A stretch of 64,000 bases of DNA from Escherichia phage D6. Shown in pieces: positions 128-54,225 of this stretch. Within the stretch, counting starts at the first letter, position 1. Every line of letters begins with the position of its first letter. The position numbers and the translations under genes are program-made. The DNA is taken from sequence record NC_050154.1. One strand, written 5' to 3'. Below the pieces are notes generated by a model that had not been told where the DNA came from, did not search any database, and saw nothing but the letters and a program-made list of their open reading frames with translations.

Positions 128-197
128 GATGACAAAAAATCACAGTTCGATCCTTTACTCACTCTGTTATTCGACATAAATTTGTCATAGTAATTTT

Positions 198-210
198 ATG
201 TTAGAAAACT
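198..210 (-). promoter_or_regulatory. Inverted copy of the operator-like motif (plus strand atgttagaaaact) 17 bp before the ATG at 227
   Basis: Reverse complement agttttctaacat matches the dispersed core; sits over the expected promoter/RBS region. Confidence 0.4.
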
Positions 211-226
211 AAATCGAGTAGGAATA

Positions 227-1264
227 ATGAGTAAGAAGTCGATCGAGAAAGAGTACAAACGGTTCCTGCAAACCGCTGAACGGTGGAAAGAGCTGGTGGT
301 CGCAAACTCTGTTTTCCATGATACCAGTTATGCTGGCGAGGAATTCCGCCATGTTGCATTAACGCATGACCAAAACATATTAGAAGAAGCTGAAAAATGT
401 CTTGCTGAATGGAAAGCCTTCGTTGACATGTGCCGCGATGCCGACGGCAAAGCGTCGAACATTGTTGAGTCTGTATATTCTCCGATCCCATTCATCATTG
501 AGGACACCAATCAAAGCACGCATGTCGTTGTGCAAAGCGCTACAACAACACGTACATTTACACGTGAACAATTGCTAAAAAAATACGACAAAATCATAAA
601 GAAAAGCCTGAAAAATAGGGTTTTTTCTCAAATCGTAGGTGCTCTTGAAGAAGAACAGCGCTTCTTTGAAGCTGAGCCTGAAGGCGAGATCTACCGGGCG
701 CGTAAAGAGGCATATACAGATGTTGTGCTGACAACAAACATCGAAGGCAGCAATGCCCTTTCTCGCTTTAGAGTTGGCGCACATGGCGCATTGGTTTTCG
801 CAAGACTACCGAAGACAACGATCCCCGTTGTCAATAATGTTGGTGAACGCCGGAGCATTACAATTTATTCTGGCGTCGAATCGGTACCTTGCAGCCTTCT
901 CGGCGATTTTAACTTATATCGTGTTCGTGACCTGGAAAAACACCAGCCAAGCTACGTTGCGAAGTCGTACATCTTAAGGAACATCGATATTCGCAATGAA
1001 AGCCTTAAGCAGAAATCCGCTAAGATGCTGGAGGATGCCGATCCGGCTATTCGCCATATCATTGAGCGTAAGATACGTACATCACGTGAAGCAATGGCAA
1101 GGCTGGATAAAATGGATCTGGAATTGTTAGACGTAATGATGGCCTCTGGAGACGACCTGACCGGCATTAAACTGAATGAAGCTCGTAAAAAATACGGCAA
1201 AGCAATCGAAGAACGTTACGGATACACATTCCCCCAAACGCAGTACGCCGCGAAGCTCTGGTAA
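227..1264 (+). CDS. Hypothetical 345-aa protein; candidate immunity repressor (c1-position analogue), function unproven
   Basis: ATG start; convergent with pacB as c1 is in P1; two operator-like motifs immediately upstream; no domain recognisable by eye. Confidence 0.4.
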   Translation: MSKKSIEKEYKRFLQTAERWKELVVANSVFHDTSYAGEEFRHVALTHDQNILEEAEKCLAEWKAFVDMCRDADGKASNIVESVYSPIPFIIEDTNQSTHVVVQSATTTRTFTREQLLKKYDKIIKKSLKNRVFSQIVGALEEEQRFFEAEPEGEIYRARKEAYTDVVLTTNIEGSNALSRFRVGAHGALVFARLPKTTIPVVNNVGERRSITIYSGVESVPCSLLGDFNLYRVRDLEKHQPSYVAKSYILRNIDIRNESLKQKSAKMLEDADPAIRHIIERKIRTSREAMARLDKMDLELLDVMMASGDDLTGIKLNEARKKYGKAIEERYGYTFPQTQYAAKLW

Positions 1265-6083: not shown

Positions 6084-6159
6084 TGGTGGCCCCTACCTGA
6101 CTTGAACCGGTGACCGTGCGATTATGAGTCGCCAGCTCTAACCACTGAGCTAAGGGGCC
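6084..6159 (-). tRNA. tRNA with anticodon CAT (Met or lysidine-Ile2)
   Basis: Hand-folded cloverleaf: acceptor GGCCCCT/AGGGGCC, D-arm GCTC..GAGC, anticodon loop CTCATAA, T-loop TTCAAGT, encoded CCA; one mismatch each in anticodon and T stems. Confidence 0.55.
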
Positions 6160-6877: not shown

Positions 6878-7144
6878 TGGTTATCCCTCAATAAACATGA
6901 CGTATTTATTAGGTTGCGGTGCCTGGTGCCTCCAGGTGACGTTAACCAGTTAACAATTAACGCCGGGATTTTTGACTTAACCACTAAGGAGGATTGTTTT
7001 AACTGTTCCGCGTGCGCTTAGCCGCATTCACCGCAATGGTAAGAGCACTTGGCTGGCTGGGCGGCGATGACGCCTGTACGCATTTGGTGATCCGGTTCTG
7101 CTTCCGGCATTCGCTTAATTAGCCAAATACTCTTAACGTTGCGC

Positions 7145-7231
7145 TGGCGGAGAGTAATGGAATCGAACCATCATCGCTTGCGCAATGGGACGGTTTTCAA
7201 GACCGCTTGAGCACCATGCGCCCTACTCTCC
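7145..7231 (-). tRNA. Atypical type-II tRNA-like gene (anticodon TGA, Ser?) or pseudo-tRNA
   Basis: Perfect 7-bp acceptor GGAGAGT/ACTCTCC with encoded CCA; anticodon arm GCGGT-CTTGAAA-ACCGT; variable arm with GCAA tetraloop; T-arm GATGG-TTCGATT-CCATT; D-arm not canonical. Confidence 0.4.
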
Positions 7232-7378
7232 GGCCGTTGTGGTGGCCGGTACTGAATCTCCGGCATACGGTGCAGCCAATTAGGACTACGGACGATCACC
7301 GCTCGCGAAAGGGAAGATTTGCGGCCGCATTTCCCTAACATCCAAGAAAGCTATCGCATCAGCCTGCGAATCCACCAC

Positions 7379-7696: not shown

Positions 7697-7772
7697 TGGT
7701 GCCGATTAACGGACTCGAACCGCTGACATCCTGCTTACAAGGCAGGCGCTCTACCAACTGAGCTAAACCGGC
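7697..7772 (-). tRNA. tRNA-Thr (anticodon TGT)
   Basis: Clean cloverleaf folded by hand: acceptor GCCGGTT/AATCGGC, anticodon stem CCTGC/GCAGG, loop CTTGTAA, T-loop TTCGAGT, encoded CCA. Confidence 0.9.
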
Positions 7773-7774
7773 AT

Positions 7775-7850
7775 TGGCGATGGTGGATGGATTTGAACCA
7801 TCGACCCGTTGATTAACAGTCAACCGCTCTAACCGCTGAGCTACACCATC
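7775..7850 (-). tRNA. tRNA-Asn (anticodon GTT)
   Basis: Clean cloverleaf: acceptor GATGGTG/CACCATC, anticodon stem GTTGA/TCAAC, loop CTGTTAA, T-loop TTCAAAT, encoded CCA. Confidence 0.9.
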
Positions 7851-12282: not shown

Positions 12283-15200
12283 TTAGGCCGCATCGGCGAT
12301 TATTTTACGCAGTTCATCTACCGAGTAACGCGTAGATACCATCCATGCAGGACGGTCAAAGTTCACATCAGCAACCGGGTTTGCTTCAAAATTCCAGAAA
12401 CGCCCGCCAATCTTCTTAATCGCGTCTTTGGCGTTCCGTATTGTCGAGGAACCTGGTTGGTCGGCAATGAGATAAACCGCGCCAACGTCCTCGCTGACGC
12501 TCCACCAGCGCCCGCGAACACGCGCCTTAGCGCGAATCGGCTTATCATTAACCACAATGATATAGTCATCATTCGCCGCTTCATCAGCTCTGGCTTCAGC
12601 CACTGCCGCCTGCTCTTCTCTTTTGCTTTCAGCCTGCTCAAGCCTTTCCGCGATCTCTGATTCAGTGGCCCCGCCGTTTTTCAGCGATACATAGTCCTGC
12701 CACGTTGACGATTTGAGCGTATCCGGCAACTCATTCACATAGTCGCCGTCTTTCAACTCACGGGCGCGGCGGGTAGCCATTTCGACCAGGCGATTAACAG
12801 AAACAGCATCAGCAAAATCGTCCTTACTAATGTGTTTTTCATCAAATGCATTGATGACAGCCCCCACCTTAATCCACTGTGCTGCCGGTGATTCCAGGGG
12901 GTTATCAGCCTGAACAATGGCGAGTTTCGCTCCATCTACCCCATTATTCGCCAGCTGTTCCAATGCCGTCCATCCATCTGCATCACTGAGTGATTTATAT
13001 TGCTCAAACAATGCATCGCGCCAGGCCACCAGCGCAGAACGTGTTTTTTCGATCTTCGCCTTAATTTTCGCGATCTTGACCTGATTAAACATCCGTTCAA
13101 TATCATCGATATTGCTAAAGGCTTTCATCCTGCCCTGGAATAAACGGTATGCCAGCACGGTCCTCCAGAATGATTCCAGACCTTCTCCGGACGGTTTGCG
13201 GAACAAGCTAAGAATATCTTCAGAAGTGACTTTATTAAGCGAACGACCTGACAGACCACGCCCAGCCATCCAGTTTTCGAACTCCTGGGTAACATCATCC
13301 ATCGTTGCCTGTGCGCCCCATGCCTGCATTCCCTGGGTGTAATCATACCCATACAATGCCTGGAGGAATCCCTCGCCGTCCACGATATTCAGCGGGTTAT
13401 CACTGGCTTGTATTTTTGCCACTTCACGCTTCAGCGCCTCGTCGTTGCCATCAGGATATATCCATCGCTCAGGTGCTATATCCGATGCTCGCCCGATTTT
13501 TTGGCCTATCACGCCATCATAGGCCGATGACAGCGCGATCTGACCATCATCTGTGCGATATGCCCAGTATTTAATAGCTGACCCACCGCCCCATGCATTA
13601 CCAGGTTTACCAGCAATAACATTCATTACCCCATTGCGAATAGCATCATAGAACTGATCGCGAGTAAGTATTGTTGATAGCTGGTGGCACTGAACACCAC
13701 GCGCAGCCGTTGCGCGCGATTCAGCTACCCCCTCTTCAAAAGTTACCGCTTCAATCACAGAGTCAAACGGCAATGTAACGATTGCCCCCGGTGCTCGAGC
13801 GTAACGACTTGCTCTATCCAGCCAGGCGATACGGCAGAGGTATTGTGCTTTTTCACCGTCAATTTTTTCCACCCGGACAATCGCTGTTGTTTCGCGATCA
13901 TCAATGACTGCACGGTAATAACTACCTTTATGCAACAGGATATTCTTGTCAGTGCGCATATATTCCTGTGGGTTCTGAATAACATCGATACTGATATCCA
14001 GCACACCAGACTTAATAGCGCGCTCCACATCACCACGAGAGCGTTTCATTATGGTATCCGCGTCTTTTGCCCTGGTGATCGCAAACCGCAGCACCCGCGC
14101 ACGTTTTCTGTAGCTACTCAACTGCTCAAGCGCGTATTTTTGCCCATTCCTGTTCGTACCCGCTTTTATCAGGTCGTCAAGATTTCGCTGGTAATACTCT
14201 ATCTGTTCCATCGCGCTTTTCAGTTCTGTCTCCATCATGCCGATATCTTTTCCGGCGGCGTTTGCCGCTTTCAGGTAGATATCGAGAGCATTGTTGGCCT
14301 CGCGCTGTGCTTTCAGTTTCAGACGTTCTTCACGCTCTTGCGCCTGGCGAGCCATGATTGCGCGGCGTTCTTCCGGGTTTGCCGCCAGCATAATGGCGCG
14401 TTCATCAGCATCATCCGCATCACCATTGGCGATCTCTGACATGTCGGAGGTCATCACCATCTTGATCCAGTCTTTCTTACGTTTAAGCGTATCCAGACGG
14501 AAGTCATCGAATGTGCCTTTGCCACAATAGTAGTGAACATTGACCTTTTCTTGCGGTGAACCTACGCGCGCACCGCGCCCATTTCGTTGGTCGATACTGG
14601 CTGGTGTCCAGGGTAGTGTCAGGTGGTGGATATCGGTTGTCCCGATGTGCAGGTTAATACCTACTTCAGCCTTCTTGTTACAGATTATGATGCGCGTGCG
14701 ACCTTCGTTATAGTCGGCGGCAATACCTTCCATGCCCTCAAGGCCAGCATCATTTTTAGCGGAGAGATAATCCTCATATTGGGCAAGTTTGCTGTAGTAG
14801 GTTTCCCATGCCCCTTCTTTGTATTCACCGTTTTTGTTTGGAGTAGGTTCGGTCGGCTTATTCACCTTCTTCAGTTTGATGCCACCAGCCTGGCTAACTG
14901 TCGTCGCATTGATAATGCCAATCTCCTGCTCCGGCATTTGCAGTGCACTGGCGATAATACGGCGCAGCTTCTGGTGCTGGGCTTTTTCATCAATAAAGAC
15001 GATCTGCTTACCGTTCTTCAGACCTTCACGAAGATTTTCGATCAGCGCGGCATACTTCGGCGGGATGGGGTGCGATACCTGCTGCATATCAATGCCGGCA
15101 GCCGCAATGGCCTTCAGTATTTCAGCTTCCAGTTCAATGCTGGCACGTATTTCAACATGCGTCGGATGTTCACTAAAAGCGGTCTTCACTACCTTGCTGG

Positions 15201-18200
15201 TACGCGTACTGACCAGCCCGCCAGCGCCGTCTTCCTCGGCCTCATCAACATCATCTGCCACTTTACCGCCAGCTACTTTTGGCAAGGCATCAGCAATAGC
15301 TTTTACCTGGTCTGCAAGCTCAACGGGGAACTGGAATGTAATCGCACTGGCATACAGATCCGGGTCTATAGCAACCTTATCCATGTCACGGATGATGGAG
15401 AAGATGAAATCATCCGGTTTGTCGTTAGTGATATGCCCGTTTTCATCGACTGTCAGCTCATCATTGCGACTTAACTCCTGAGCACGCTTACGAAGCTCTT
15501 CATAAGCAGTCTCCTGCTCCCCTGTCATCGGGATCTGCAAGGTGTTCTCGATGATGTCGGGAATTTTAACCGTCGCTCCGACATCTGCAGCAGTCTTCAG
15601 AGTGGCCCAACGATGGAAAATACCACGCAGGCCGTCAAGGTTCTGGAAGCCCACCAGCCCCTGCTTCTCTTCCACTTCCCCGGAAATTTTCTGGACCTGA
15701 ACTGTGGCTGTTTTGCCAAACACACGAACGAAATCATCAGGCGTAATGATGCCCATACGCATCCACTCTTCCTGCGGAATGACAGTAGACAGCATGTTGA
15801 AGGCATCAATCGGACTGTTCACCAGCGGTGTTGCCGTCAGCATGACTACACCACGCCCGTTGTTGCGTTTCATCATGTACGCAGCTTTTACAGCCATGTC
15901 GCGGGCCATCTTGGATACTGCCGGGTTAGGCAAATATGCCAGTTGTCCCGCTTCACGCCCGGCATTAAAGGAGTTGCGGTAGTTATGCCCCTCGTCGGCA
16001 ATCACGCTATCGAAGTTCATATCCTCAAAGTACGGGATATTTTGCTTCTTCGTTGTACCGGTATTCGCGGCCTGATCCTTAATCTTGTTCTTCTTCTGCG
16101 CATCACGGTGTTTACCGGACGCCAGGTCAAGACGCCCCATTTCCACAGCATTAAAGACAGCTTGCTGTGAGTTCTCCTCGATGGTTTTTTCTCGTAGCGG
16201 GATAGACGCGAATTGTTCTTTTGTCATGATGACCGTTCGCCAATTTGACGACGGGATCATGTTCATACGCTGAACGATAACGGCGCTGGAGGACTCTTTC
16301 ACAACATTTCTGGTAAGAGGCTGCCCGTTACTGTCGAGGCGTGGTTCGCCATTTTCATCAAGCACCGGCGCGGTCAGAATATTTCCGCTGTCATCACGAA
16401 CTTCATCCAAACCGATAAACATCATATTGGCGAAGGCATCAGCACTGTAGAAACTCTGTGCCTCGTGATACCAGTTCTGATAAACCGCCTTCGGAACAAC
16501 AATACACGTGCGTTTAGTGCGACCTGTTTCGAAGTTATACGCCTCAAGCGCAAGCGCGGTCGTGGTTTTACCCAGCCCGGTACCAAATCCCATGATGCCA
16601 CGCCCATCTTCTGACAAGCGCCGAACTTCTTCATTCTGATAAGTCAGAGGAATGCGCTTTCCACTAATCCCTTCCAGGCCAAGCGGTGCGTCAGAATGTG
16701 TGAACGGAATGAAACCATTGAATGCGTCGTTATAGTCACGGGCTATCTGATCCGCCTGCGGGTGGGTGCGTAACCAGTCGTTAAAGCTAACTTCCAGTTG
16801 AGCAATTTTATCCAGGTACTCGTTAGCGTTCTGCCCACGCGGTTTAACACCGTTCAGGTAGTTTTCTAACTGGTTCAGGAAGCCGTCTTTATTGTTGGCC
16901 TTCTTGAACTCATTCCCGTTTTTGCCGTTTACGGTTCGTAGCTGATAGCCGGTAAATACCCCGTCCTTACCTTCGTAATCGTCCGGAGATACCAGAATGC
17001 CATCGACGACCTTCAGATCAGGTTCAGTGTACTTAAACTCGTCATAGCCCTGCTCTGCCAAGAACTCTTTTATCAAGCGGCGATCCAGCCAGCGGGCATT
17101 CAGATTAACGGTGACTTTATTTAGTGGCGTGAAAATGCGTTTCTCTTCGATTTTCGCCAACTGACGCTCAAAGTTCGCTTTCTGCTCACCTGTTGACGCA
17201 TCACGCCAGCCCACCAGCAGTGCTGTTTTGGTTGCAACATCGCCGCTGGTGGCGCGGTCCATCGGCAGCAGACAGCCATACCCATCAATAGCGATATCAT
17301 CAAATTTCGCCAGGTATTCAAGGACCGCGTCGTCGTCCTCTGGCAGTTCACCAGCAAACGCCTCACGAAAGTCGCCCAGCGTTATAGGATTAAGGGCTAC
17401 ATCACTAAAAAGATGTGCTATCACTTGTTCAGGACGTGTAAAGTCAATACCGGCAGCACCATCCGTTACATCAAGTCGCCCTGCCAGAAGGTCAGAAGTG
17501 GAACCATCCTGTTTCACATTGCCAGTGAACGTCATCCAGTTTTTAGCGCCAGCTTCAGCAAGCCCATTCAGCTTAATGGCGTGCGGTGGTCCATACTTCG
17601 CAACTTCTGCTGCCGCCAGGCGGGATGCATCTGCCAGTTTGTCATCAACGTTCACACCCAGGTTACGCAAATCAAGTGCCTTGTTGATCAACTGACCTAT
17701 CAGCGCACCGCGCATAACGCGCTCCCTGTCTTTTTCTCGCTGCTTGCCAGCAAAGCGAATCATTGCTGCCACTTCATCACTGACAACCGATGGATAGTCG
17801 GACGCGATCGCCGATATCTGGTCCCATGACAAAGCCAGAATCCCGTTTGTTGACTGGAACGCGATCTGCAGATCGCCAAACGTCGAAACACCATATCGAC
17901 TTACATCAAGCGCGGAGGATTTGGTTGTCGTGTCCTTAACCCATTTCAGACCATCAAACTCATGCCAGATACCGCCTACAAGGCGTTTATCGCCCACTTT
18001 CGCGCCCTGCCATGCCTGAGTAGTTACGCCGAGCAAATCCCAATTGATGCGACTATCAAAGCGACGAGATAGCGCGGTTTTCATCGACTCATTGGATACA
18101 CGACCGTCTTTTTTCACCACCAGGGTATTGCGGAAGCTGGTACGTTCCATGTCGCCGTAAACAAATCGCTTCCCTTCGGTTGTAAACCATTTTCCTTTGA

Positions 18201-19119
18201 GGAAGGTATCCCAAAGGACGTTTGCCGATTTGAGTGTTGAATCATCCGTGTCGGGGATCATCTCCAGGAAGGTTTCCGGGTGTTTACGCAATACCCATAC
18301 GTCCACCACGGTATCTGTACCGGATTCGCTGAACGTACCAGAAGGCATACGATGTGCGCCCAAAAATTCCGCTTTACGGCTGACTTTATCGCGCAATTTT
18401 TTATATTTCGCACCATCGGTCATGCCATTCGGCACCACCAATACGATAAGCCCACCAGGCTTAACCTTGTCGATCGTGCGCAGCACAAAGTAATTGCCAA
18501 CGTTCTTCTCGTTTGCATATGCCGGATCAAGACCGGCGACACCGGAACGCCCTTCACCAAACGGTACGTTACCAACAGCGTGATCATACATTGCGTCTTT
18601 CGCCGCCAGCGCCTCAAACGCCCCGATATTCACATCGTCTTCCGGGTGCAAAAGCTGGTTTATTCGACCGGAAATCGGAGACAGTTCGGCGCTGGTCATT
18701 ATCATGCCCTGCCGTTTTGTCTCCTGGAAAATACCTGTGCCCGCTGATGGTTCCAGTACGTGCCCGCCATCAATACCGTAGTCAGCAAACAGATCCCATA
18801 TACCTTCAGCCATAAACTGTGGCGTGTAGTATTCGTATTGGCTGCCCTCACCATCTGTCAGGCCGCCTTCACCGGTATACCCGGCAAGAATCTGACGTTG
18901 TTCGTCAGTTAATTTCGCCCCATCGAAGCCGGGCGGAAGGGAATTAAGAAGATTTACTGCGGCATTATTTGCTGCCCGGCGTGTTTTCTGAATACTGACG
19001 CCATCGGCTTTCCTGACGCCAAAGGTCGCAACAGCACGTAATTTATGCAACCGACTAACAATTTCAATCAGTTCGCCTAAGCTGGAGGCTTCACTGATTG
19101 AATGAAGTAGTTTGTCCAA
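12283..19119 (-). CDS. darB: DarB-like antirestriction protein (N-terminal adenine-methyltransferase domain plus superfamily-2 helicase)
   Basis: 2278 aa; MTase-like NVPFG and SAM-binding region; helicase motifs GFGTGLGKTT and DEGH; TTG start with strong RBS (GAGGGGG); size matches P1 DarB (~2255 aa). Confidence 0.8.
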   Translation of the reverse strand: MDKLLHSISEASSLGELIEIVSRLHKLRAVATFGVRKADGVSIQKTRRAANNAAVNLLNSLPPGFDGAKLTDEQRQILAGYTGEGGLTDGEGSQYEYYTPQFMAEGIWDLFADYGIDGGHVLEPSAGTGIFQETKRQGMIMTSAELSPISGRINQLLHPEDDVNIGAFEALAAKDAMYDHAVGNVPFGEGRSGVAGLDPAYANEKNVGNYFVLRTIDKVKPGGLIVLVVPNGMTDGAKYKKLRDKVSRKAEFLGAHRMPSGTFSESGTDTVVDVWVLRKHPETFLEMIPDTDDSTLKSANVLWDTFLKGKWFTTEGKRFVYGDMERTSFRNTLVVKKDGRVSNESMKTALSRRFDSRINWDLLGVTTQAWQGAKVGDKRLVGGIWHEFDGLKWVKDTTTKSSALDVSRYGVSTFGDLQIAFQSTNGILALSWDQISAIASDYPSVVSDEVAAMIRFAGKQREKDRERVMRGALIGQLINKALDLRNLGVNVDDKLADASRLAAAEVAKYGPPHAIKLNGLAEAGAKNWMTFTGNVKQDGSTSDLLAGRLDVTDGAAGIDFTRPEQVIAHLFSDVALNPITLGDFREAFAGELPEDDDAVLEYLAKFDDIAIDGYGCLLPMDRATSGDVATKTALLVGWRDASTGEQKANFERQLAKIEEKRIFTPLNKVTVNLNARWLDRRLIKEFLAEQGYDEFKYTEPDLKVVDGILVSPDDYEGKDGVFTGYQLRTVNGKNGNEFKKANNKDGFLNQLENYLNGVKPRGQNANEYLDKIAQLEVSFNDWLRTHPQADQIARDYNDAFNGFIPFTHSDAPLGLEGISGKRIPLTYQNEEVRRLSEDGRGIMGFGTGLGKTTTALALEAYNFETGRTKRTCIVVPKAVYQNWYHEAQSFYSADAFANMMFIGLDEVRDDSGNILTAPVLDENGEPRLDSNGQPLTRNVVKESSSAVIVQRMNMIPSSNWRTVIMTKEQFASIPLREKTIEENSQQAVFNAVEMGRLDLASGKHRDAQKKNKIKDQAANTGTTKKQNIPYFEDMNFDSVIADEGHNYRNSFNAGREAGQLAYLPNPAVSKMARDMAVKAAYMMKRNNGRGVVMLTATPLVNSPIDAFNMLSTVIPQEEWMRMGIITPDDFVRVFGKTATVQVQKISGEVEEKQGLVGFQNLDGLRGIFHRWATLKTAADVGATVKIPDIIENTLQIPMTGEQETAYEELRKRAQELSRNDELTVDENGHITNDKPDDFIFSIIRDMDKVAIDPDLYASAITFQFPVELADQVKAIADALPKVAGGKVADDVDEAEEDGAGGLVSTRTSKVVKTAFSEHPTHVEIRASIELEAEILKAIAAAGIDMQQVSHPIPPKYAALIENLREGLKNGKQIVFIDEKAQHQKLRRIIASALQMPEQEIGIINATTVSQAGGIKLKKVNKPTEPTPNKNGEYKEGAWETYYSKLAQYEDYLSAKNDAGLEGMEGIAADYNEGRTRIIICNKKAEVGINLHIGTTDIHHLTLPWTPASIDQRNGRGARVGSPQEKVNVHYYCGKGTFDDFRLDTLKRKKDWIKMVMTSDMSEIANGDADDADERAIMLAANPEERRAIMARQAQEREERLKLKAQREANNALDIYLKAANAAGKDIGMMETELKSAMEQIEYYQRNLDDLIKAGTNRNGQKYALEQLSSYRKRARVLRFAITRAKDADTIMKRSRGDVERAIKSGVLDISIDVIQNPQEYMRTDKNILLHKGSYYRAVIDDRETTAIVRVEKIDGEKAQYLCRIAWLDRASRYARAPGAIVTLPFDSVIEAVTFEEGVAESRATAARGVQCHQLSTILTRDQFYDAIRNGVMNVIAGKPGNAWGGGSAIKYWAYRTDDGQIALSSAYDGVIGQKIGRASDIAPERWIYPDGNDEALKREVAKIQASDNPLNIVDGEGFLQALYGYDYTQGMQAWGAQATMDDVTQEFENWMAGRGLSGRSLNKVTSEDILSLFRKPSGEGLESFWRTVLAYRLFQGRMKAFSNIDDIERMFNQVKIAKIKAKIEKTRSALVAWRDALFEQYKSLSDADGWTALEQLANNGVDGAKLAIVQADNPLESPAAQWIKVGAVINAFDEKHISKDDFADAVSVNRLVEMATRRARELKDGDYVNELPDTLKSSTWQDYVSLKNGGATESEIAERLEQAESKREEQAAVAEARADEAANDDYIIVVNDKPIRAKARVRGRWWSVSEDVGAVYLIADQPGSSTIRNAKDAIKKIGGRFWNFEANPVADVNFDRPAWMVSTRYSVDELRKIIADAA

Positions 19120-19270: not shown

Positions 19271-19756
19271 ATGGCAAACATTGAACCTCGCTGGCTAATT
19301 GAAGCCCGTAAGCACATTGGCCTGACTGAAATAAAAGGCGCTAAACACAACCCTGAAATCGTTCAGTTCTGGCGCGACATCAAGCGCGGCGGAATTAAAG
19401 ACGATGAAACGCCGTGGTGCGCAGCATTTGTCGGTGCAATGCTGGAACGTGTAGGCATCCGCTCAACAAGATTTGAGTCGGCAAAATCCTATCTGGATTG
19501 GGGCGAGAAATTAGATACACCGGCATACGGATGTATCGTTGTATTTACCCGCGTAGGCGGTGGGCACGTAGGCTTCGTTGTCGGACGCCGCGCCAATGGC
19601 GATCTGCTTGTCCTGGGTGGGAACCAGGGGGATGCGGTTAATATTCGCGCATTCCCAACATCAAGAGTGTCTGGCTATCGCTGGCCTGCTGGCGAACCAC
19701 GCAATACCGCTCTGTTACCAGTCGGAGACGCAGCAACCTCAACTAATGAGGCATGA
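19271..19756 (+). CDS. NlpC/P60-CHAP-type peptidoglycan hydrolase-like protein (TIGR02594-like)
   Basis: 161 aa; catalytic-type Cys (ETPWCAAFV) and His (GGGHVGFVVG) spaced as in CHAP/NlpC-P60 enzymes. Confidence 0.5.
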   Translation: MANIEPRWLIEARKHIGLTEIKGAKHNPEIVQFWRDIKRGGIKDDETPWCAAFVGAMLERVGIRSTRFESAKSYLDWGEKLDTPAYGCIVVFTRVGGGHVGFVVGRRANGDLLVLGGNQGDAVNIRAFPTSRVSGYRWPAGEPRNTALLPVGDAATSTNEA

Positions 19757-19780
19757 AAAAAGCCCCGGCCAGGCCGGGGC
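19755..19780. terminator. Hairpin terminator (T-run on minus strand) ending the icd/ant-like operon
   Basis: gccccggc-cag-gccggggc preceded by AAAAAA on plus strand. Confidence 0.55.
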
Positions 19781-19788
19781 ATCACGCT

Positions 19789-19989
19789 TCAAGTCACGAT
19801 CCAATCATTACCGACTATATCAGCCGTCGATAAATCAACTTCCCGGATCTGGAGTCCATTAATACAAAACCATCCGGTAGTAGAGTAATTATCAGGCCAG
19901 GCCCATACACCAACACTCCATGCTTTACGGCGGCACACTTCAGCCTGTCCTTCCCTGATTTTTTTTACCGCCTGCATGATGTCCATCAC
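19789..19989 (-). CDS. Hypothetical small protein
   Basis: 66-aa ORF, start overlaps stop of the upstream gene. Confidence 0.3.
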   Translation of the reverse strand: MMDIMQAVKKIREGQAEVCRRKAWSVGVWAWPDNYSTTGWFCINGLQIREVDLSTADIVGNDWIVT

Positions 19990-20693
19990 TCACCTCCCCA
20001 ACCGATCACCTGGAATTGCCCCATTTTGGGGTGATACCAGCGTTTTCCTCGGTGTTCAGCCTCCGACATCATCCGGTTAAAAGCATTCATGAAGGGAGAT
20101 AAGGCCACGATGGAACGACGCGACAATACCCCCTCTGGAGTTAAAAACTCATGCGTATCGGTGGGAATCCGGTAAGCGTTGACCAAGTTGCGACATTTGG
20201 CTTCGGTCAGGCCACATTTCGCCGCCAGCTGGCGGTAGCCAATGTAGCCTTCCGGCATATTGCCCTTCTTGATTTGCTCGACGGTTTCAGCGACCTGGCT
20301 AACCTTTGACTCAACAGCATGAAGCCGCTTTTGCTGCTGAACTGCATTTGCAGCCATTGCGGCGATCATCTCTATTTCGGTCAACGGCTGGCGTACTTGT
20401 TCTTCCAGTTCGCGCCAGCGGTCCACCAGCCGGGCGGTAAATTCGGGAGAAAGCTGCGCAACGACAATGATACTGTCACGCTTGCCTTGCTCGCCTTCGA
20501 AGACGTAGTGTGAATTTTTAACTTTAAATCCTAAGTTATTGATATTTTCGGAAACCTCCATTGGAGGAAGTGGAATAACACCTGATTTACTCAAGCGTTC
20601 AATAGTGCGTTTAACGTTATCCGGGCGACTTCCCACCAGCTCCGCGATCTCAATGCTGGTCATTGATGGCTTTTCAAGAATGCAGATTTCCAT
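19986..20693 (-). CDS. Antirepressor-like protein (Rha/ORF6N-type N-terminal domain)
   Basis: 235 aa; SIEIAELVGSRPDNVKRTIERL resembles phage Rha/Ant N-termini; strong RBS GGAGG; sits where ant sits in the P1 c4-icd-ant operon. Confidence 0.45.
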   Translation of the reverse strand: MEICILEKPSMTSIEIAELVGSRPDNVKRTIERLSKSGVIPLPPMEVSENINNLGFKVKNSHYVFEGEQGKRDSIIVVAQLSPEFTARLVDRWRELEEQVRQPLTEIEMIAAMAANAVQQQKRLHAVESKVSQVAETVEQIKKGNMPEGYIGYRQLAAKCGLTEAKCRNLVNAYRIPTDTHEFLTPEGVLSRRSIVALSPFMNAFNRMMSEAEHRGKRWYHPKMGQFQVIGWGGE

Positions 20694-20917
20694 CAGTGTG
20701 CCTCCGCAATTCCGGGATTGGTAATATTGCGATACCAGGGATTAGTGTTTGGTTGTGGGGAAGTAGAGAAACGACCAGTAAGAACACCATACTGATCAGG
20801 GATCAGAGAACGGGCTTCTTTTTCGGTTGCGGCAATTGCGAAGTGATCGCAGTGTTTTTGCAGGGAGTGGAAACGCCAGATGAATTCTGGGCGTGAGCAA
20901 GGATTGGCATTAACCAT
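20693..20917 (-). CDS. Icd-like small protein (position and size analogue)
   Basis: 74 aa (P1 Icd is ~73 aa, from memory); start codon lies 11 nt downstream of an antisense-target element; coupled to the ant-like gene (ATGA overlap). Confidence 0.35.
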   Translation of the reverse strand: MVNANPCSRPEFIWRFHSLQKHCDHFAIAATEKEARSLIPDQYGVLTGRFSTSPQPNTNPWYRNITNPGIAEAH

Positions 20918-20974
20918 AGTTACGGCCTCGTAAGTTGATAAACAACCTGCGACCCGCTGTCAAACAGGTGGCAG

Positions 20975-21015
20975 GACGTGACAGGGTTGACAGACTGGCA
21001 CTTACGAAACCAGCA
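20975..21015 (-). ncRNA. c4-like antisense RNA core (boundaries approximate)
   Basis: Transcript would carry CGUAAGU and CUGUCAA, complementary in the correct antiparallel order to two repeated target pairs (GUUUGACAG ... ACUUACG) at 21112..21134 and 20928..20965, the latter overlapping the icd-like RBS. Confidence 0.4.
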
Positions 21016-21266
21016 GGCCGAAGCCTCCCCATCACGCCCCACCATAATTCGGGCGTAACGTGGTTTTACGGACACAAAAATACCGCAATATCGGAAATGT
21101 GCGGTTGTCCGCGTAAGTATTCAGGCTGTCAAACCCGGTCGCAGAATTTGCTACGACGGCATGAATATAAGCCTGAAAACATGGAAGATCAACTAAAAAT
21201 TTCAGCAATGGATGACTTCAGTCGATGATGCAGATCATACATTCCGATTTAGAAACAGCAAATTAA

Positions 21267-21284
21267 TTTTCTAACACAAATCAT
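21267..21284 (+). promoter_or_regulatory. Operator-like motif (ttttctaacacaaatcat) upstream of the c4/icd/ant-like operon
   Basis: 18-bp identity with the site at 54208..54225. Confidence 0.5.
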
Positions 21285-21330
21285 CGAGCGAGCATTTTCC
21301 GATCATTGGGATGTTTTGTAGACACACAGG

Positions 21331-22293
21331 TCATCCCCTAAATCCCGCAGGGATTGACCAATCCTCACGGTCAAATTCAGACCGATAGCCACGCTGTTTC
21401 ATCAGGTCAAAGGCTTCACCAATGGTTGCACACCCCTGGGAGCCAGAATAATCCATTGAGAAATCCAGGGCACTGGATTGTTTAGGCTTATTCACTGCGG
21501 TAGCGGCACTACGTATCCATGCAAATTTTTTTGCCAGCTTTTCAGCGGTACGATACAGAGCCTGCCGTTTTGCGTGCCCCTCGTCTGAACGACGCTTTGC
21601 AGCTCTCGCTTTTGCCGCCGCCAGGCAGTGGTTGGTATGTTCTTCCCTGATTACTGGTTTTTTATCCAGTACCACGTTATCCGTTTGAGAACTATCTGCT
21701 GGTGAAGCCTTTGGCTGAACCGCGCATGATCTTTCTCTTCTTTTGGCTATAGAGTGACTCTTATTTTCTATTGGCTGTTCATTTTGAACATGGGGGGACT
21801 TGTTCAATTTGAACAGGGGGTTCCCAGTTTCAAAAAAATAACGAACCTTTGAAATCAACTGCTTAACCAGTTTTGTGGCGTTGGCAAATTTGATGCCCTG
21901 CTTACCCCCTATCTCCATTGCTACATGAATGAAGTGGAGAAATTGTGTCGTAAACCGATATACGTTACACACCTGGGCATTGTTATTCGCTACCTGATGT
22001 TGCTTAACAAGCATTCCGCACTTCGTCGCTTCAGTAAATGCCCGGCGCACAGTAGAAATACTGCGCCCTGTAATCTCAGACATATCAGCATATGAGCGAC
22101 GGATCATGTATTCATCGGTAGCCCCTGCAAGGTTGGCGAACTCGGCAATAATGGCGCTATGTGAAGGGGAAAGAAGACCGCTATGACGAGCAAAAAAACT
22201 CAACTGATGACCTTTGATTTTTTTGTGGTATTCAGTGTTGTTTTTATACTCAGAAGTGTTGAAAGTTACTGAAACTGAATTTAAAATATTCAC
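21331..22293 (-). CDS. HTH-containing hypothetical protein (possible replication or regulatory protein)
   Basis: 320 aa; HTH-like MSEITGRSISTVRRAFTEATKCGML; basic C-terminal half. Confidence 0.3.
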   Translation of the reverse strand: MNILNSVSVTFNTSEYKNNTEYHKKIKGHQLSFFARHSGLLSPSHSAIIAEFANLAGATDEYMIRRSYADMSEITGRSISTVRRAFTEATKCGMLVKQHQVANNNAQVCNVYRFTTQFLHFIHVAMEIGGKQGIKFANATKLVKQLISKVRYFFETGNPLFKLNKSPHVQNEQPIENKSHSIAKRRERSCAVQPKASPADSSQTDNVVLDKKPVIREEHTNHCLAAAKARAAKRRSDEGHAKRQALYRTAEKLAKKFAWIRSAATAVNKPKQSSALDFSMDYSGSQGCATIGEAFDLMKQRGYRSEFDREDWSIPAGFRG

Positions 22294-54207: not shown

Positions 54208-54225
54208 TTTTCTAACACAAATCAT
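54208..54225 (+). promoter_or_regulatory. Operator-like motif (ttttctaacacaaatcat) 8 bp upstream of the 54233 start
   Basis: 18-bp identity with the site at 21267; preceded by gtgattta. Confidence 0.5.

What the first reader, a model, noticed from the sequence alone, without database searches (positions are those of the whole stretch)
19789..21284. c4-like antisense RNA immunity module: repeated target pairs and a complementary segment upstream of icd/ant-like genes
In the 350-nt leader between the operator at 21267 and the 74-aa gene start, the transcript would contain two copies of GUUUGACAG ... ACUUACG (plus strand 21112..21134 and 20928..20965) and, between them, CGUAAGU ... CUGUCAA (plus strand 20987..21006), complementary to both in the antiparallel order needed for pairing. 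The proximal target lies 11 nt before the start codon and overlaps its GAGG Shine-Dalgarno. This matches the logic of P1/P7 immI, where C4 RNA pairs with two sites to block icd/ant translation, and the downstream genes match in size and type (74-aa Icd-like, Rha-type antirepressor). The element sequences themselves look distinct from what I would expect for P1 or P7, suggesting a different immI specificity.
Basis: partly seen in the sequence, partly recalled or inferred. Interest (0 to 1): 0.6.

Follow-up and report, generated by a model that had tools for sequence, protein, structure and literature searches.

The report
C4 antisense-RNA immunity switch, D6-like phage-plasmid
This is a genuine copy of the well-known phage P1/P7 "C4" antisense-RNA switch that keeps a cell-division inhibitor and an antirepressor silent in a plasmid prophage; here it sits in a D6-like E. 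coli phage-plasmid and carries a recognition-sequence allele that differs from both P1 and P7, so it is a real but largely ordinary feature.

Summary
GUUUGACAG…ACUUACG occurs twice on the minus strand (21112-21134, 20929-20965). Its antiparallel complement CGUAAGU…CUGUCAA lies between them (20987-21006). About 0.01 such pairs are expected by chance.

Rfam finds both the C4 antisense RNA (RF01695, 69.6 bits) and its a1/b1 targets (RF03163, 55.9 bits) above gathering score. The predicted 77-nt C4 matches P1 C4 at 72 of 77 positions, and all five differences lie in the b' loop. The b2 target overlaps the GAGG Shine-Dalgarno of an Icd homologue. A Rha-type "anti-repressor" gene and a 65-aa gene follow, each with a one-base TGATG stop/start overlap.

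Across 50 distinct related loci, 6 of the 7 base pairs in each b helix (b1:b' and b':b2) show changes on both sides, with 98-100% of cells paired.

The a element is the P1 allele. The b element is the allele of Salmonella phage SJ46. At least 12 a/b combinations exist, and this one also occurs in P1-backbone elements.

The host is a D6-like plasmid prophage in which c4, icd and an antirepressor are already annotated in print.

This is a new member (allele plus cargo) of a known kind, and interest is modest.

The parts
21265..21285 (-). Operator-like motif GATGATTTGTGTTAGAAAATT, a candidate binding site for the element's own C1-type repressor
   Evidence: The core TGTTAGAAAA/TATTAGAAAA recurs at window 201(+), 4634(+), 54215(-), 11372(-), 10329(-) and 8924(-), and four more times in the rest of the plasmid, including upstream of ref. 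An 18-mer is identical at 54208-54225. Copies lie directly upstream of the C1 homologue at 227-1264. The motif is conserved in all 9 distinct D6-like upstream regions. No binding was tested.
21234..21262 (-). Possible weak upstream promoter TTGCTG-17-TATGAT next to the operator, in a position analogous to P1 P51a
   Evidence: Read directly from the sequence and conserved in D6-like relatives. It falls below the threshold of the promoter scan. This is an inference only.
21164..21192 (-). Sigma-70 promoter TTGATC-17-TATATT, equivalent to P1 P1c4/P51b
   Evidence: Promoter scan. It aligns with the annotated -35 TTGACC and -10 TATAGT of P1.
21126..21134 (-). a1 target (GUUUGACAG; core UUGACAG at 21126-21132)
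   Evidence: Aligns with the P1 'a1 target site' and lies inside the Rfam c4-a1b1 hit at 21118-21170. In the a1:a' helix, 4 of 7 pairs show changes on both sides and 100% of cells are paired.
21112..21118 (-). b1 target (ACUUACG)
   Evidence: Aligns with P1 b1. In the b1:b' helix, 6 of 7 pairs show changes on both sides and 99.7% of cells are paired.
21076..21105 (-). Leader hairpin ACCGCA…UGCGGU followed by a U-run, an IsrK-like partial terminator between b1 and C4
   Evidence: Fold of 21157-21072. The isrK model scores 46.5 bits at 21076-21157, below its gathering score of 50. Its function is inferred from Gifsy-1 IsrK (PMC4825925).
20967..21043 (-). C4 antisense RNA; the 77-nt mature form is predicted by alignment with P1 c4
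   Evidence: RF01695, 69.6 bits. 72 of 77 positions match P1 C4, and all differences lie in b'. MFE -42.8 kcal/mol, z -5.2.
21000..21006 (-). b' recognition element CGUAAGU, in a 9-nt hairpin loop
   Evidence: The predicted duplex with its own b2 is -11.1 kcal/mol, against -0.9 for P1 b2 and -1.7 for P7 b2.
20987..20993 (-). a' recognition element CUGUCAA, in the single-stranded junction
   Evidence: It is identical to P1 a'.
20957..20965 (-). a2 target (GUUUGACAG)
   Evidence: In the a':a2 helix, 2 of 7 pairs show changes on both sides and 98.3% of cells are paired.
20926..20935 (-). b2 target ACUUACG (20929-20935) overlapping the Shine-Dalgarno GAGG (20926-20929) of icd
   Evidence: In the b':b2 helix, 6 of 7 pairs show changes on both sides and 98% of cells are paired.
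20693..20917 (-). icd homologue (74 aa); its 5' third is P1-like at the DNA level and the remainder is diverged
   Evidence: NF033153 phage_ICD_like, 40 bits. 60.7% identity to P1 Icd over 61 aa. DNA homology to P1 ends near 20806.
19986..20693 (-). Rha-type putative antirepressor (235 aa); its ATG overlaps the icd stop (TGATG)
   Evidence: phrog_63 'anti-repressor Ant', E 3.7e-48. Pfam HTH_24 is above its cutoff; Phage_pRha scores 26.5 bits, below its cutoff of 29.9. No significant similarity to P1 Ant1 or KilA.
19789..19986 (-). 65-aa gene, third in the operon (TGATG overlap); possibly a Tad2-like/DUF2829 domain
   Evidence: phrog_7385. Weak full-length PF11195 hit of 15.2 bits, below the cutoff of 25. 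The homologue P0007 scores 23.9 bits. The domain is fused to the Rha paralogue in the plasmid's second module.
19762..19780 (-). Intrinsic terminator GCCCCGGCC-UGG-CCGGGGC followed by a U-run, ending the operon
   Evidence: Terminator scan: 8 GC pairs followed by a T-run.

Best explanation
This is the immI-type secondary immunity switch of a D6-like plasmid prophage. It works in the following steps.

1. Transcription starts at a P51b-like promoter (21192-21164). A possible weaker promoter further upstream lies next to a lineage-specific C1-type operator (21265-21285).
2. The transcript carries, in order: the a1/b1 sites, a hairpin with a U-run, the C4 RNA, the a2/b2 sites, icd, a Rha-type antirepressor gene and a 65-aa gene.
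3. C4 is cut out of this transcript as a stable RNA of about 77 nt. By analogy with P1, RNase P makes the 5' end.
4. The loop element b' (CGUAAGU) and the single-stranded element a' (CUGUCAA) of C4 pair with b2 and a2 on the same or sister transcripts.
5. This pairing buries the GAGG Shine-Dalgarno of icd and blocks its translation. Because the downstream genes overlap icd (TGATG), and by analogy with P1 are subject to Rho-dependent polarity, the antirepressor and the 65-aa protein are silenced too.
6. In a lysogen the switch therefore holds the antirepressor off. On infection or induction, before C4 accumulates or when it is titrated, Icd and the antirepressor are made.
7. The upstream a1/b1 leader probably acts as a second C4-binding site or decoy, as IsrK does.

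What is shown here: the sequence elements, the RNA family membership, the complementarity and the three-way covariation. What is inferred: the processing, the translational block, the polarity, the antirepressor activity and the operator function.

Specificity is set by two short elements. This element combines the P1 a allele with the SJ46 b allele. It is therefore predicted not to be fully repressed by the C4 of P1, of P7 or of SJ46.
For: - **RNA family membership.** Rfam C4 and c4-a1b1 both score above gathering.
- **Homology to P1 and relatives.** Window 20806-21177 is 86-92% identical to the c4-icd leaders of P1, P7 and SJ46. Every annotated P1 feature maps onto the window.
- **Structure.** The C4 fold places b' in a loop and a' in a single strand; z = -5.2.
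- **Pairing energies.** Cognate b'-b2 is -11.1 kcal/mol, against -0.9 with P1 b2 and -1.7 with P7 b2.
- **Allele survey.** Among 125 C4 occurrences, the a1 = a' = a2 and b1 = b' = b2 correspondence holds in essentially all. There are 2 a alleles and at least 7 b alleles.
- **Formal pair counts on 50 distinct loci.** 6 of 7 b pairs show changes on both sides, 98-100% of cells are paired, and controls with the partner slid by 1-3 columns give 33-54%.
- **Downstream genes.** Icd family hit and the PHROG 'anti-repressor Ant' hit. Stop/start overlaps and a terminal terminator are present.
- **Operator.** The motif is repeated at least 11 times in the plasmid, including upstream of the C1 homologue and of ref.
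- **P1 mechanism.** As summarised in PMC8198154, citing Citron & Schuster 1990.
- **IsrK precedent.** PMC4825925.
Against: - There are no expression or processing data for this element.
- The antirepressor is not homologous to P1 Ant1/2 (E 0.18). Its target repressor is only 21% identical to P1 C1. Antirepressor activity therefore rests on a PHROG family label.
- The P1-type C1 operator is absent from the whole window. The substitute operator is inferred from motif recurrence alone.
- Whether a mismatch in only one of the two elements is enough for heteroimmunity is not known from anything I could read.
- The leader hairpin scores below the isrK gathering threshold.
Confidence: 0.88

Rival explanations
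1. P4/N15-type mode. The C4-like RNA acts mainly by causing premature transcription termination when it pairs with flanking target sites, as P4 CI RNA does with seqA/seqC, rather than by blocking icd translation.
For: P4 CI, N15 CB and P1 C4 are the same kind of processed antisense RNA; the relation for P4 is described in PMC4825925. A hairpin with a U-run sits between b1 and C4. Two target pairs flank the RNA.
Against: b2 overlaps the Shine-Dalgarno 11 nt before the icd ATG, exactly as in P1. The leader is 86-92% identical to P1/P7, where the translational block is the established primary event. The two modes are not mutually exclusive, because in P1 the translational block itself leads to transcriptional polarity; that point rests on my own knowledge of Biere et al. 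1992, which I did not read here.
Confidence: 0.07
2. Decayed or orphan module. The C4 region is a recombination relic carried over from a P1-like phage and no longer regulates anything in the D6-like backbone.
For: Homology to P1 is confined to about 370 bp and ends abruptly on both sides. The downstream cargo is unrelated to P1 Ant.
Against: All three copies of both elements are perfectly matched. The module with intact promoter and operator is conserved in 110 plasmid records that cover at least 80% of the query and in 9 distinct D6-like upstream variants. Within the D6-like lineage several different a/b alleles occur, each with all three copies co-changed. That pattern requires continuing selection for pairing.
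Confidence: 0.03
3. Chance complementarity in an AT/GC-mixed leader, with no RNA gene.
For: None beyond the shortness of the elements (7-9 nt).
Against: The expected number of such paired motifs is 0.00-0.01. Rfam E-values are about 1e-11. Covariation is present.
Confidence: 0.01

Closest known systems
Phage P1 / P7 immI operon (Op51-P51a/b, a1 b1, c4, a2 b2, icd, ant1/ant2)
   Same: The order of elements is the same. C4 matches P1 C4 at 72 of 77 positions, and the P51b-type promoter is shared. The a allele is identical to P1. b2 lies over the icd Shine-Dalgarno, and an Icd homologue is followed by an overlapping next gene.
   Different: The b allele is ACUUACG (P1 has GUUAGUG, P7 has GAUUGUG). 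There is no P1-type C1 operator. The antirepressor is Rha-type and lacks the ANT/KilAC domain. An extra 65-aa gene is present. No kilA-repL follows; a RepL-like gene lies upstream instead. No sim genes are adjacent.
Salmonella phage SJ46 (Punavirus SJ46) c4 region
   Same: The b1/b'/b2 allele is identical (ACUUACG/CGUAAGU). SJ46 gives the highest DNA identity of the phage records, 91.7%.
   Different: SJ46 carries the P7-type a allele (UUAGCAG) and has a P1-type backbone with P1-type Ant, KilA and RepL.
D6-like plasmid prophages (phage D6; pYU39_89, CP011430)
   Same: The window belongs to this group. The 1701-bp region is 98.8% identical to NZ_CP011430.1. PMC6799933 already reports c4, icd and antirepressor homologues there, plus a second c4/icd region.
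   Different: The published description stays at the level of gene homology. I found no analysis of the a/b recognition alleles. I could not read Gilcrease & Casjens 2018.
Gifsy-1 IsrK / orf45 / AnrP (with STnc1160)
   Same: A leader sRNA ends at a leaky terminator, a processed RNA lies downstream, and a small ORF precedes an antirepressor-like gene (PMC4825925). The window leader gives a sub-threshold isrK hit. The plasmid's second module gives a full one at 62.5 bits.
   Different: In Gifsy-1 the leader RNA acting in trans is the described activator. In the window the leader matches the c4-a1b1 model better than isrK, and its U-run hairpin is weaker.
P4 CI RNA and N15 CB RNA immunity
   Same: These are processed antisense RNAs with two flanking target sites that control anti-immunity or replication genes. 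This comparison rests on my own knowledge plus PMC4825925.
   Different: They act chiefly by transcription termination, and their recognition sequences and cargo differ.

Membership tests
C4 antisense RNA (Rfam RF01695; P1/P7 c4) | Sequence and secondary structure match the family model at or above the gathering score | tested here: met
   69.6 bits against a gathering score of 45, E 1.7e-11, full-length model match at 20964-21049(-). The MFE fold reproduces the consensus; z = -5.2.
C4 antisense RNA (Rfam RF01695; P1/P7 c4) | Two exposed recognition elements (b' in a hairpin loop, a' single-stranded) complementary to a downstream a2/b2 pair, with b2 at the ribosome-binding site of the first ORF | tested here: met
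   b' is at 21000-21006 and a' at 20987-20993. a2 is at 20957-20965 and b2 at 20929-20935, overlapping GAGG.
C4 antisense RNA (Rfam RF01695; P1/P7 c4) | Complementarity maintained by compensatory change in relatives | tested here: met
   50 distinct loci were compared. For b':b2, 6 of 7 pairs show changes on both sides and 98% of cells are paired. For b1:b', 6 of 7 pairs and 99.7%. Slid controls give 33-54%. In 125 occurrences there are 2 a alleles and at least 7 b alleles, with the three copies matched in essentially all.
C4 antisense RNA (Rfam RF01695; P1/P7 c4) | Processed from the operon transcript to a stable RNA of about 77 nt (RNase P makes the 5' end) | not testable with these tools
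   Only inferred: 72 of 77 positions match P1 C4, with an identical closing stem and 3' GCCACC.
c4-a1b1 target motif (Rfam RF03163) | Upstream a1/b1 copies in the family's two-hairpin context, at or above the gathering score | tested here: met
   55.9 bits against a gathering score of 46.7 at 21118-21170(-). The fold agrees.
P1/P7 immI operon (protein cargo and control) | The first ORF is an Icd homologue | tested here: met
   NF033153, 40 bits against a cutoff of 25. 60.7% identity to P1 Icd over 61 aa.
P1/P7 immI operon (protein cargo and control) | The downstream antirepressor is homologous to Ant1/Ant2 (ANT/KilAC domain) | tested here: not met
   BLASTP against P1 Ant1 gives E 0.18. Pfam finds ANT in P1 Ant1 but not in the window protein, which has HTH_24 and a sub-threshold Phage_pRha hit. 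It does match PHROG 63 'anti-repressor Ant'.
P1/P7 immI operon (protein cargo and control) | A P1 C1 operator (ATTGCTCTAATAAATTT type) upstream of the promoters | tested here: not met
   There is no match with up to 3 mismatches anywhere in the window. A different repeated motif occupies the position.
P1/P7 immI operon (protein cargo and control) | Control by the element's own primary repressor at that operator | tested here: inconclusive
   The motif TGTTAGAAAA recurs at least 11 times in the plasmid. Sites include upstream of the C1 homologue (227-1264; 21% identity to P1 C1, E 4e-6) and upstream of ref. There are no binding data.
P1/P7 immI operon (protein cargo and control) | Translation of icd is required for downstream transcription (Rho-dependent polarity) | not testable with these tools
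   Only the one-base TGATG overlaps, which are consistent with coupling, can be seen.
IsrK sRNA (Rfam RF01394) | Match at or above the gathering score, including the Rho-independent terminator | tested here: not met
   46.5 bits against a gathering score of 50 at 21076-21157. The plasmid's second module, outside the window, scores 62.5 bits.
Tad2-like / DUF2829 (PF11195), for the 65-aa third gene | Pfam match at or above the gathering score | tested here: inconclusive
   15.2 bits, E 0.032, against a cutoff of 25, but the match is full-length. The homologue P0007 scores 23.9 bits and P0006 scores 14 bits. hhalign against the plasmid's own DUF2829 protein gives a probability of 2.7%. The AF2 single-sequence model has pLDDT 60.7 and is unusable.

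The most novel reading that the evidence does not exclude
The C4 switch is a portable two-key antisense lock. The survey found 12 of the 14 possible combinations of 2 a alleles and 7 b alleles. These are functionally orthogonal immunity specificities, and they are exchanged as a cassette of about 370 bp between P1-like and D6-like phage-plasmids that use unrelated antirepressors and different C1 repressors.

On this reading the window's allele (a of P1, b of SJ46) is heteroimmune to P1, P7 and SJ46. It is homoimmune at the immI level to P1-backbone elements such as L118 and L040, whose leaders are 98-99% identical. That would give cross-lineage immunity between otherwise unrelated prophages.

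D6-like elements would additionally run two orthogonal C4 circuits. One of them co-regulates a Tad2-like anti-defence domain together with the antirepressor.
Probability: 0.4. Interest if true: 0.5.

Novelty: new member of a known kind. Interest (0 to 1): 0.3.

Why it matters
The result confirms that raw-sequence reading can recover an antisense-RNA regulatory circuit correctly. It also places that circuit in a lineage, the D6-like phage-plasmids common in E. coli and Salmonella, where it has only been noted by homology.

The a/b allele survey has modest wider value. It suggests a natural library of short, orthogonal antisense "keys". These may decide which phage-plasmids can hold each other's antirepressors silent, which bears on superinfection and co-residence of elements that often carry resistance genes. 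They could also be borrowed as orthogonal RNA regulators.

None of this changes the known mechanism.

Tried and rejected
- **IMG/VR scan with internal Ns.** A pattern with internal Ns returned nothing. A plain 25-mer worked.
- **GTDB genome scan.** A scan of species representatives with a 20-mer gave mostly chance hits in GC-rich MAGs and only two Escherichia contigs, so it added nothing.
- **P1 C1 operator.** The consensus is absent from the window. I therefore dropped the idea that P1 C1 controls this operon.
- **Second C4 inside the window.** None was found, even at relaxed Rfam thresholds. The published "second c4/icd region" lies outside the window.
- **The 65-aa protein.** Searches found almost no homologues: 3 and 7. 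A single-sequence AlphaFold model was too poor for fold search. I ran no further search on it.
- **Papers.** Gilcrease & Casjens 2018 and Lobocka 2004 are not held. I cannot say whether the a/b allele diversity has already been tabulated there.
- **Antirepressor homology.** BLASTP of the Rha-type protein against P1 Ant1 and KilA found nothing significant.
Full report
**1. Observation**

- GTTTGACAG-N-ACTTACG occurs twice, at 21112-21134 and 20929-20965. Shuffles give an expectation of 0.01.
- The antiparallel complement CGTAAGT-N6-CTGTCAA lies between them at 20987-21006, with an expectation of 0.00.
- The proximal ACTTACG ends 11 nt before the ATG at 20917, and its last G begins the GAGG Shine-Dalgarno.
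- The "operator at 21267" is part of a motif repeated elsewhere in the window.

**2. What it is**

Rfam places two families here above their gathering scores.
- C4 antisense RNA (RF01695): 69.6 bits at 20964-21049(-).
- Its a1/b1 targets (RF03163): 55.9 bits at 21118-21170(-).

Megablast shows that window 20806-21177 is 86-92% identical to the c4-icd leaders of P1, P7, SJ46 and relatives, and nothing else in the 1.7-kb region matches. A four-way alignment with the annotated P1 record maps every P1 feature onto the window.

| Feature | Window coordinates (minus strand) |
|---|---|
| P51b-type promoter, TTGATC-17-TATATT (also found by the scan) | 21192-21164 |
| a1 | 21126-21132 |
| b1 | 21112-21118 |
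| C4 RNA, 77 nt | 20967-21043 |
| a2 | 20957-20963 |
| b2 | 20929-20935 |
| icd ATG | 20917 |

The predicted C4 matches P1 C4 at 72 of 77 positions, and all five differences fall in the b' loop. It folds into the family structure at -42.8 kcal/mol with z -5.2. In that fold b' sits in a 9-nt hairpin loop and a' in a single-stranded junction.

**3. Genes under its control**

- icd (20693-20917) is an Icd homologue: NF033153 at 40 bits and 60.7% identity to P1 Icd. DNA-level similarity to P1 fades after about codon 37.
- The icd stop overlaps the ATG (TGATG) of a 235-aa protein. That protein has an N-terminal winged-helix/Rha-type domain and matches PHROG 63 "anti-repressor Ant" at E 3.7e-48.
- This protein is not a homologue of P1 Ant1 or KilA.
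- A third gene of 65 aa (19789-19986) overlaps in the same way, and a strong intrinsic terminator follows at 19762-19780.

**4. Host element and upstream control**

- The 1.7-kb region is 100% identical to E. coli plasmid NZ_CP122910.1 and 98.8% identical to pYU39_89 (NZ_CP011430.1). In all, 110 plasmid records hold at least 80% of it.
- pYU39_89 is published as a D6-like plasmid prophage. Its authors already noted c4, icd and antirepressor homologues and a second c4/icd region (PMC6799933).
- The P1 C1 operator consensus is absent from the whole window.
- Instead, the motif TGTTAGAAAA(Y)(Y)AA recurs at least 7 times in the window and 4 more times in the rest of the plasmid. The sites include the positions directly upstream of a distant C1 homologue (227-1264; 21% identity to P1 C1, E 4e-6) and upstream of ref.
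- The copy at 21265-21285 is conserved in all D6-like relatives sampled.
- I therefore read this motif as the lineage's own C1-type operator. That is an inference.
- Homology to P1 begins only at the -35 of the P51b-type promoter. The shared cassette thus excludes the operator, which has to match each lineage's own repressor.

**5. Test of the antisense logic in relatives**

A 25-mer from the invariant C4 core retrieved 120 IMG/VR loci. Together with P1, P7, SJ46, the identical plasmid L004 and the window, this gives 125 occurrences.
- The a element has 2 alleles (GA, AG).
- The b element has at least 7 alleles: GATTGTG, ACTTACG, GTTAGTG, ACGAATG, GTACATG, ACTTGTG and GTTCAAG.
- In essentially every locus the three copies (1, prime, 2) carry the same allele.

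Formal pair counts on 50 distinct sequences:

| Helix | Pairs with changes on both sides | Cells paired |
|---|---|---|
| b':b2 | 6 of 7 | 98% |
| b1:b' | 6 of 7 | 99.7% |
| a':a2 | 2 of 7 | 98.3% |
| a1:a' | 4 of 7 | 100% |
| Controls, partner slid by 1-3 columns | 0-4 of all 41 pairs in the structure | 33-54% |

**6. Specificity**

- The window carries the P1 a allele and the b allele of SJ46. P1 is GA/GTTAGTG, P7 is AG/GATTGTG, and SJ46 is AG/ACTTACG.
- Predicted b'-b2 duplex energy is -11.1 kcal/mol for the cognate pair, against -0.9 for P1 b2 and -1.7 for P7 b2.
- The combination occurs 7 times in the sample.
- It also occurs in P1-backbone elements such as L118 and L040, which carry P1-type Icd, Ant1 and KilA and whose 255-nt leaders are 98-99% identical to the window.
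- Alleles are shuffled over both backbones.

**7. Mechanism**

The mechanism is as given under best explanation. The anatomy, family membership, complementarity and covariation are shown here. The following are inferred from P1/P7 (summarised in PMC8198154) and from my own knowledge of the Schuster-lab papers: processing of C4, occlusion of the Shine-Dalgarno, polarity on the downstream genes, antirepressor action on the C1 homologue, and operator function.

The a1/b1 leader ends in a hairpin with a U-run and gives a sub-threshold isrK hit. By analogy with Gifsy-1 IsrK (PMC4825925), it may be released as a short RNA that titrates C4.

**8. Beyond the window**

The rest of the plasmid (L125) holds a second, orthogonal module.
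- isrK scores 62.5 bits and C4 scores 76.7 bits.
- The recognition elements differ from those in the window: a' is GUUCCAA and b' is CCCUUUUGC.
- icd2 is 45% identical to the window Icd.
- A Rha paralogue is 67% identical to the window protein. Its C-terminus is fused to a homologue of the window's 65-aa protein (40% identity, E 1e-17).
- That fusion ties the 65-aa gene functionally to the antirepressor.

The 65-aa protein gives weak but full-length hits to Tad2-like/DUF2829: 15.2 bits, with a homologue at 23.9 bits, against a cutoff of 25. This is suggestive and unproven.

**9. Verdict**

The feature is real and correctly interpreted. It belongs to a long-known system, is detected by curated models, and lies in an element where it has been noted in print. 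It differs from P1 in its a/b allele combination, its Rha-type cargo and its lineage-specific operator. I rate it a new member of a known kind, with interest 0.3.

Noticed in passing
L125 10440-11870 (- strand); NZ_CP122910.1 about 73940-75370, outside the window: The same plasmid has a second, orthogonal immI-like module. It contains isrK (62.5 bits), C4 (76.7 bits; a' GUUCCAA, b' CCCUUUUGC), icd2, and a Rha paralogue fused to a homologue of the window's 65-aa protein. PMC6799933 mentions a second c4/icd region; I did not see the fusion described.
   Followed up: partly
window 19789-19986 (-): The 65-aa third gene of the operon gives weak full-length hits to Tad2-like/DUF2829 (PF11195): 15.2 bits, with homologue P0007 at 23.9 bits, against a cutoff of 25. 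If real, a Thoeris anti-defence-type domain would be co-regulated with the antirepressor by C4.
   Followed up: partly
window 201(+), 4634(+), 8924(-), 10329(-), 11372(-), 21274(-), 54215(-); L125 737, 12405, 13067, 16774: A repeated motif (T)TGTGTTAGAAAA(Y)(Y)AA has at least 11 copies in the 91-kb plasmid, against 2.7 expected in the window for the 8-mer core. It is probably the operator set of the D6-type C1 repressor and takes the place of the P1 ATTGCTCTAATAAATTT operators.
   Followed up: partly
window 227-1264 (+): A 345-aa ORF is a distant homologue of P1 C1 (21% identity over 268 aa, E 4e-6). Operator-like motifs lie at about 123(-) and 194-214(+) immediately upstream, which suggests autoregulation as at P1 Op99.
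   Followed up: partly
L045 (IMGVR_UViG_2565956613_000015), c4 region: One P1-backbone locus has b1 and b' of allele ACGAATG but b2 of allele GTTAGTG. Its icd Shine-Dalgarno target does not match its own C4, so it may be a recombinant with a derepressed or cross-controlled antirepressor.
   Followed up: no
window 6087-6159, 7700-7772, 7778-7850 (-); also 7148-7232 and 6915-7035: Three tRNA genes form a cluster (58-75 bits). Nearby are a sub-threshold tRNA-Sec-like hit (43.1 bits against a gathering score of 47) and a sub-threshold STnc100 hit (39.6 against 47).
   Followed up: no
window 19271-19756 (+) and 12283-19119 (-): A TIGR02594/CHAP-domain peptidoglycan hydrolase gene converges on the immI operon and shares its GC-rich terminator. 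Beyond it lies a 2278-aa DarB-like methylase/helicase gene. The gene order around immI (portal, prohead protease-like, RepL-like, c4-icd-rha) differs from P1.
   Followed up: no
window 21331-22293 (-): A 320-aa protein annotated elsewhere as 'lytic replication protein/RepL' (phrog_2418; weak HTH_36) ends 46 bp upstream of the operator. The lytic replicon gene therefore precedes immI here, whereas in P1 it follows (ant-kilA-repL).
   Followed up: no
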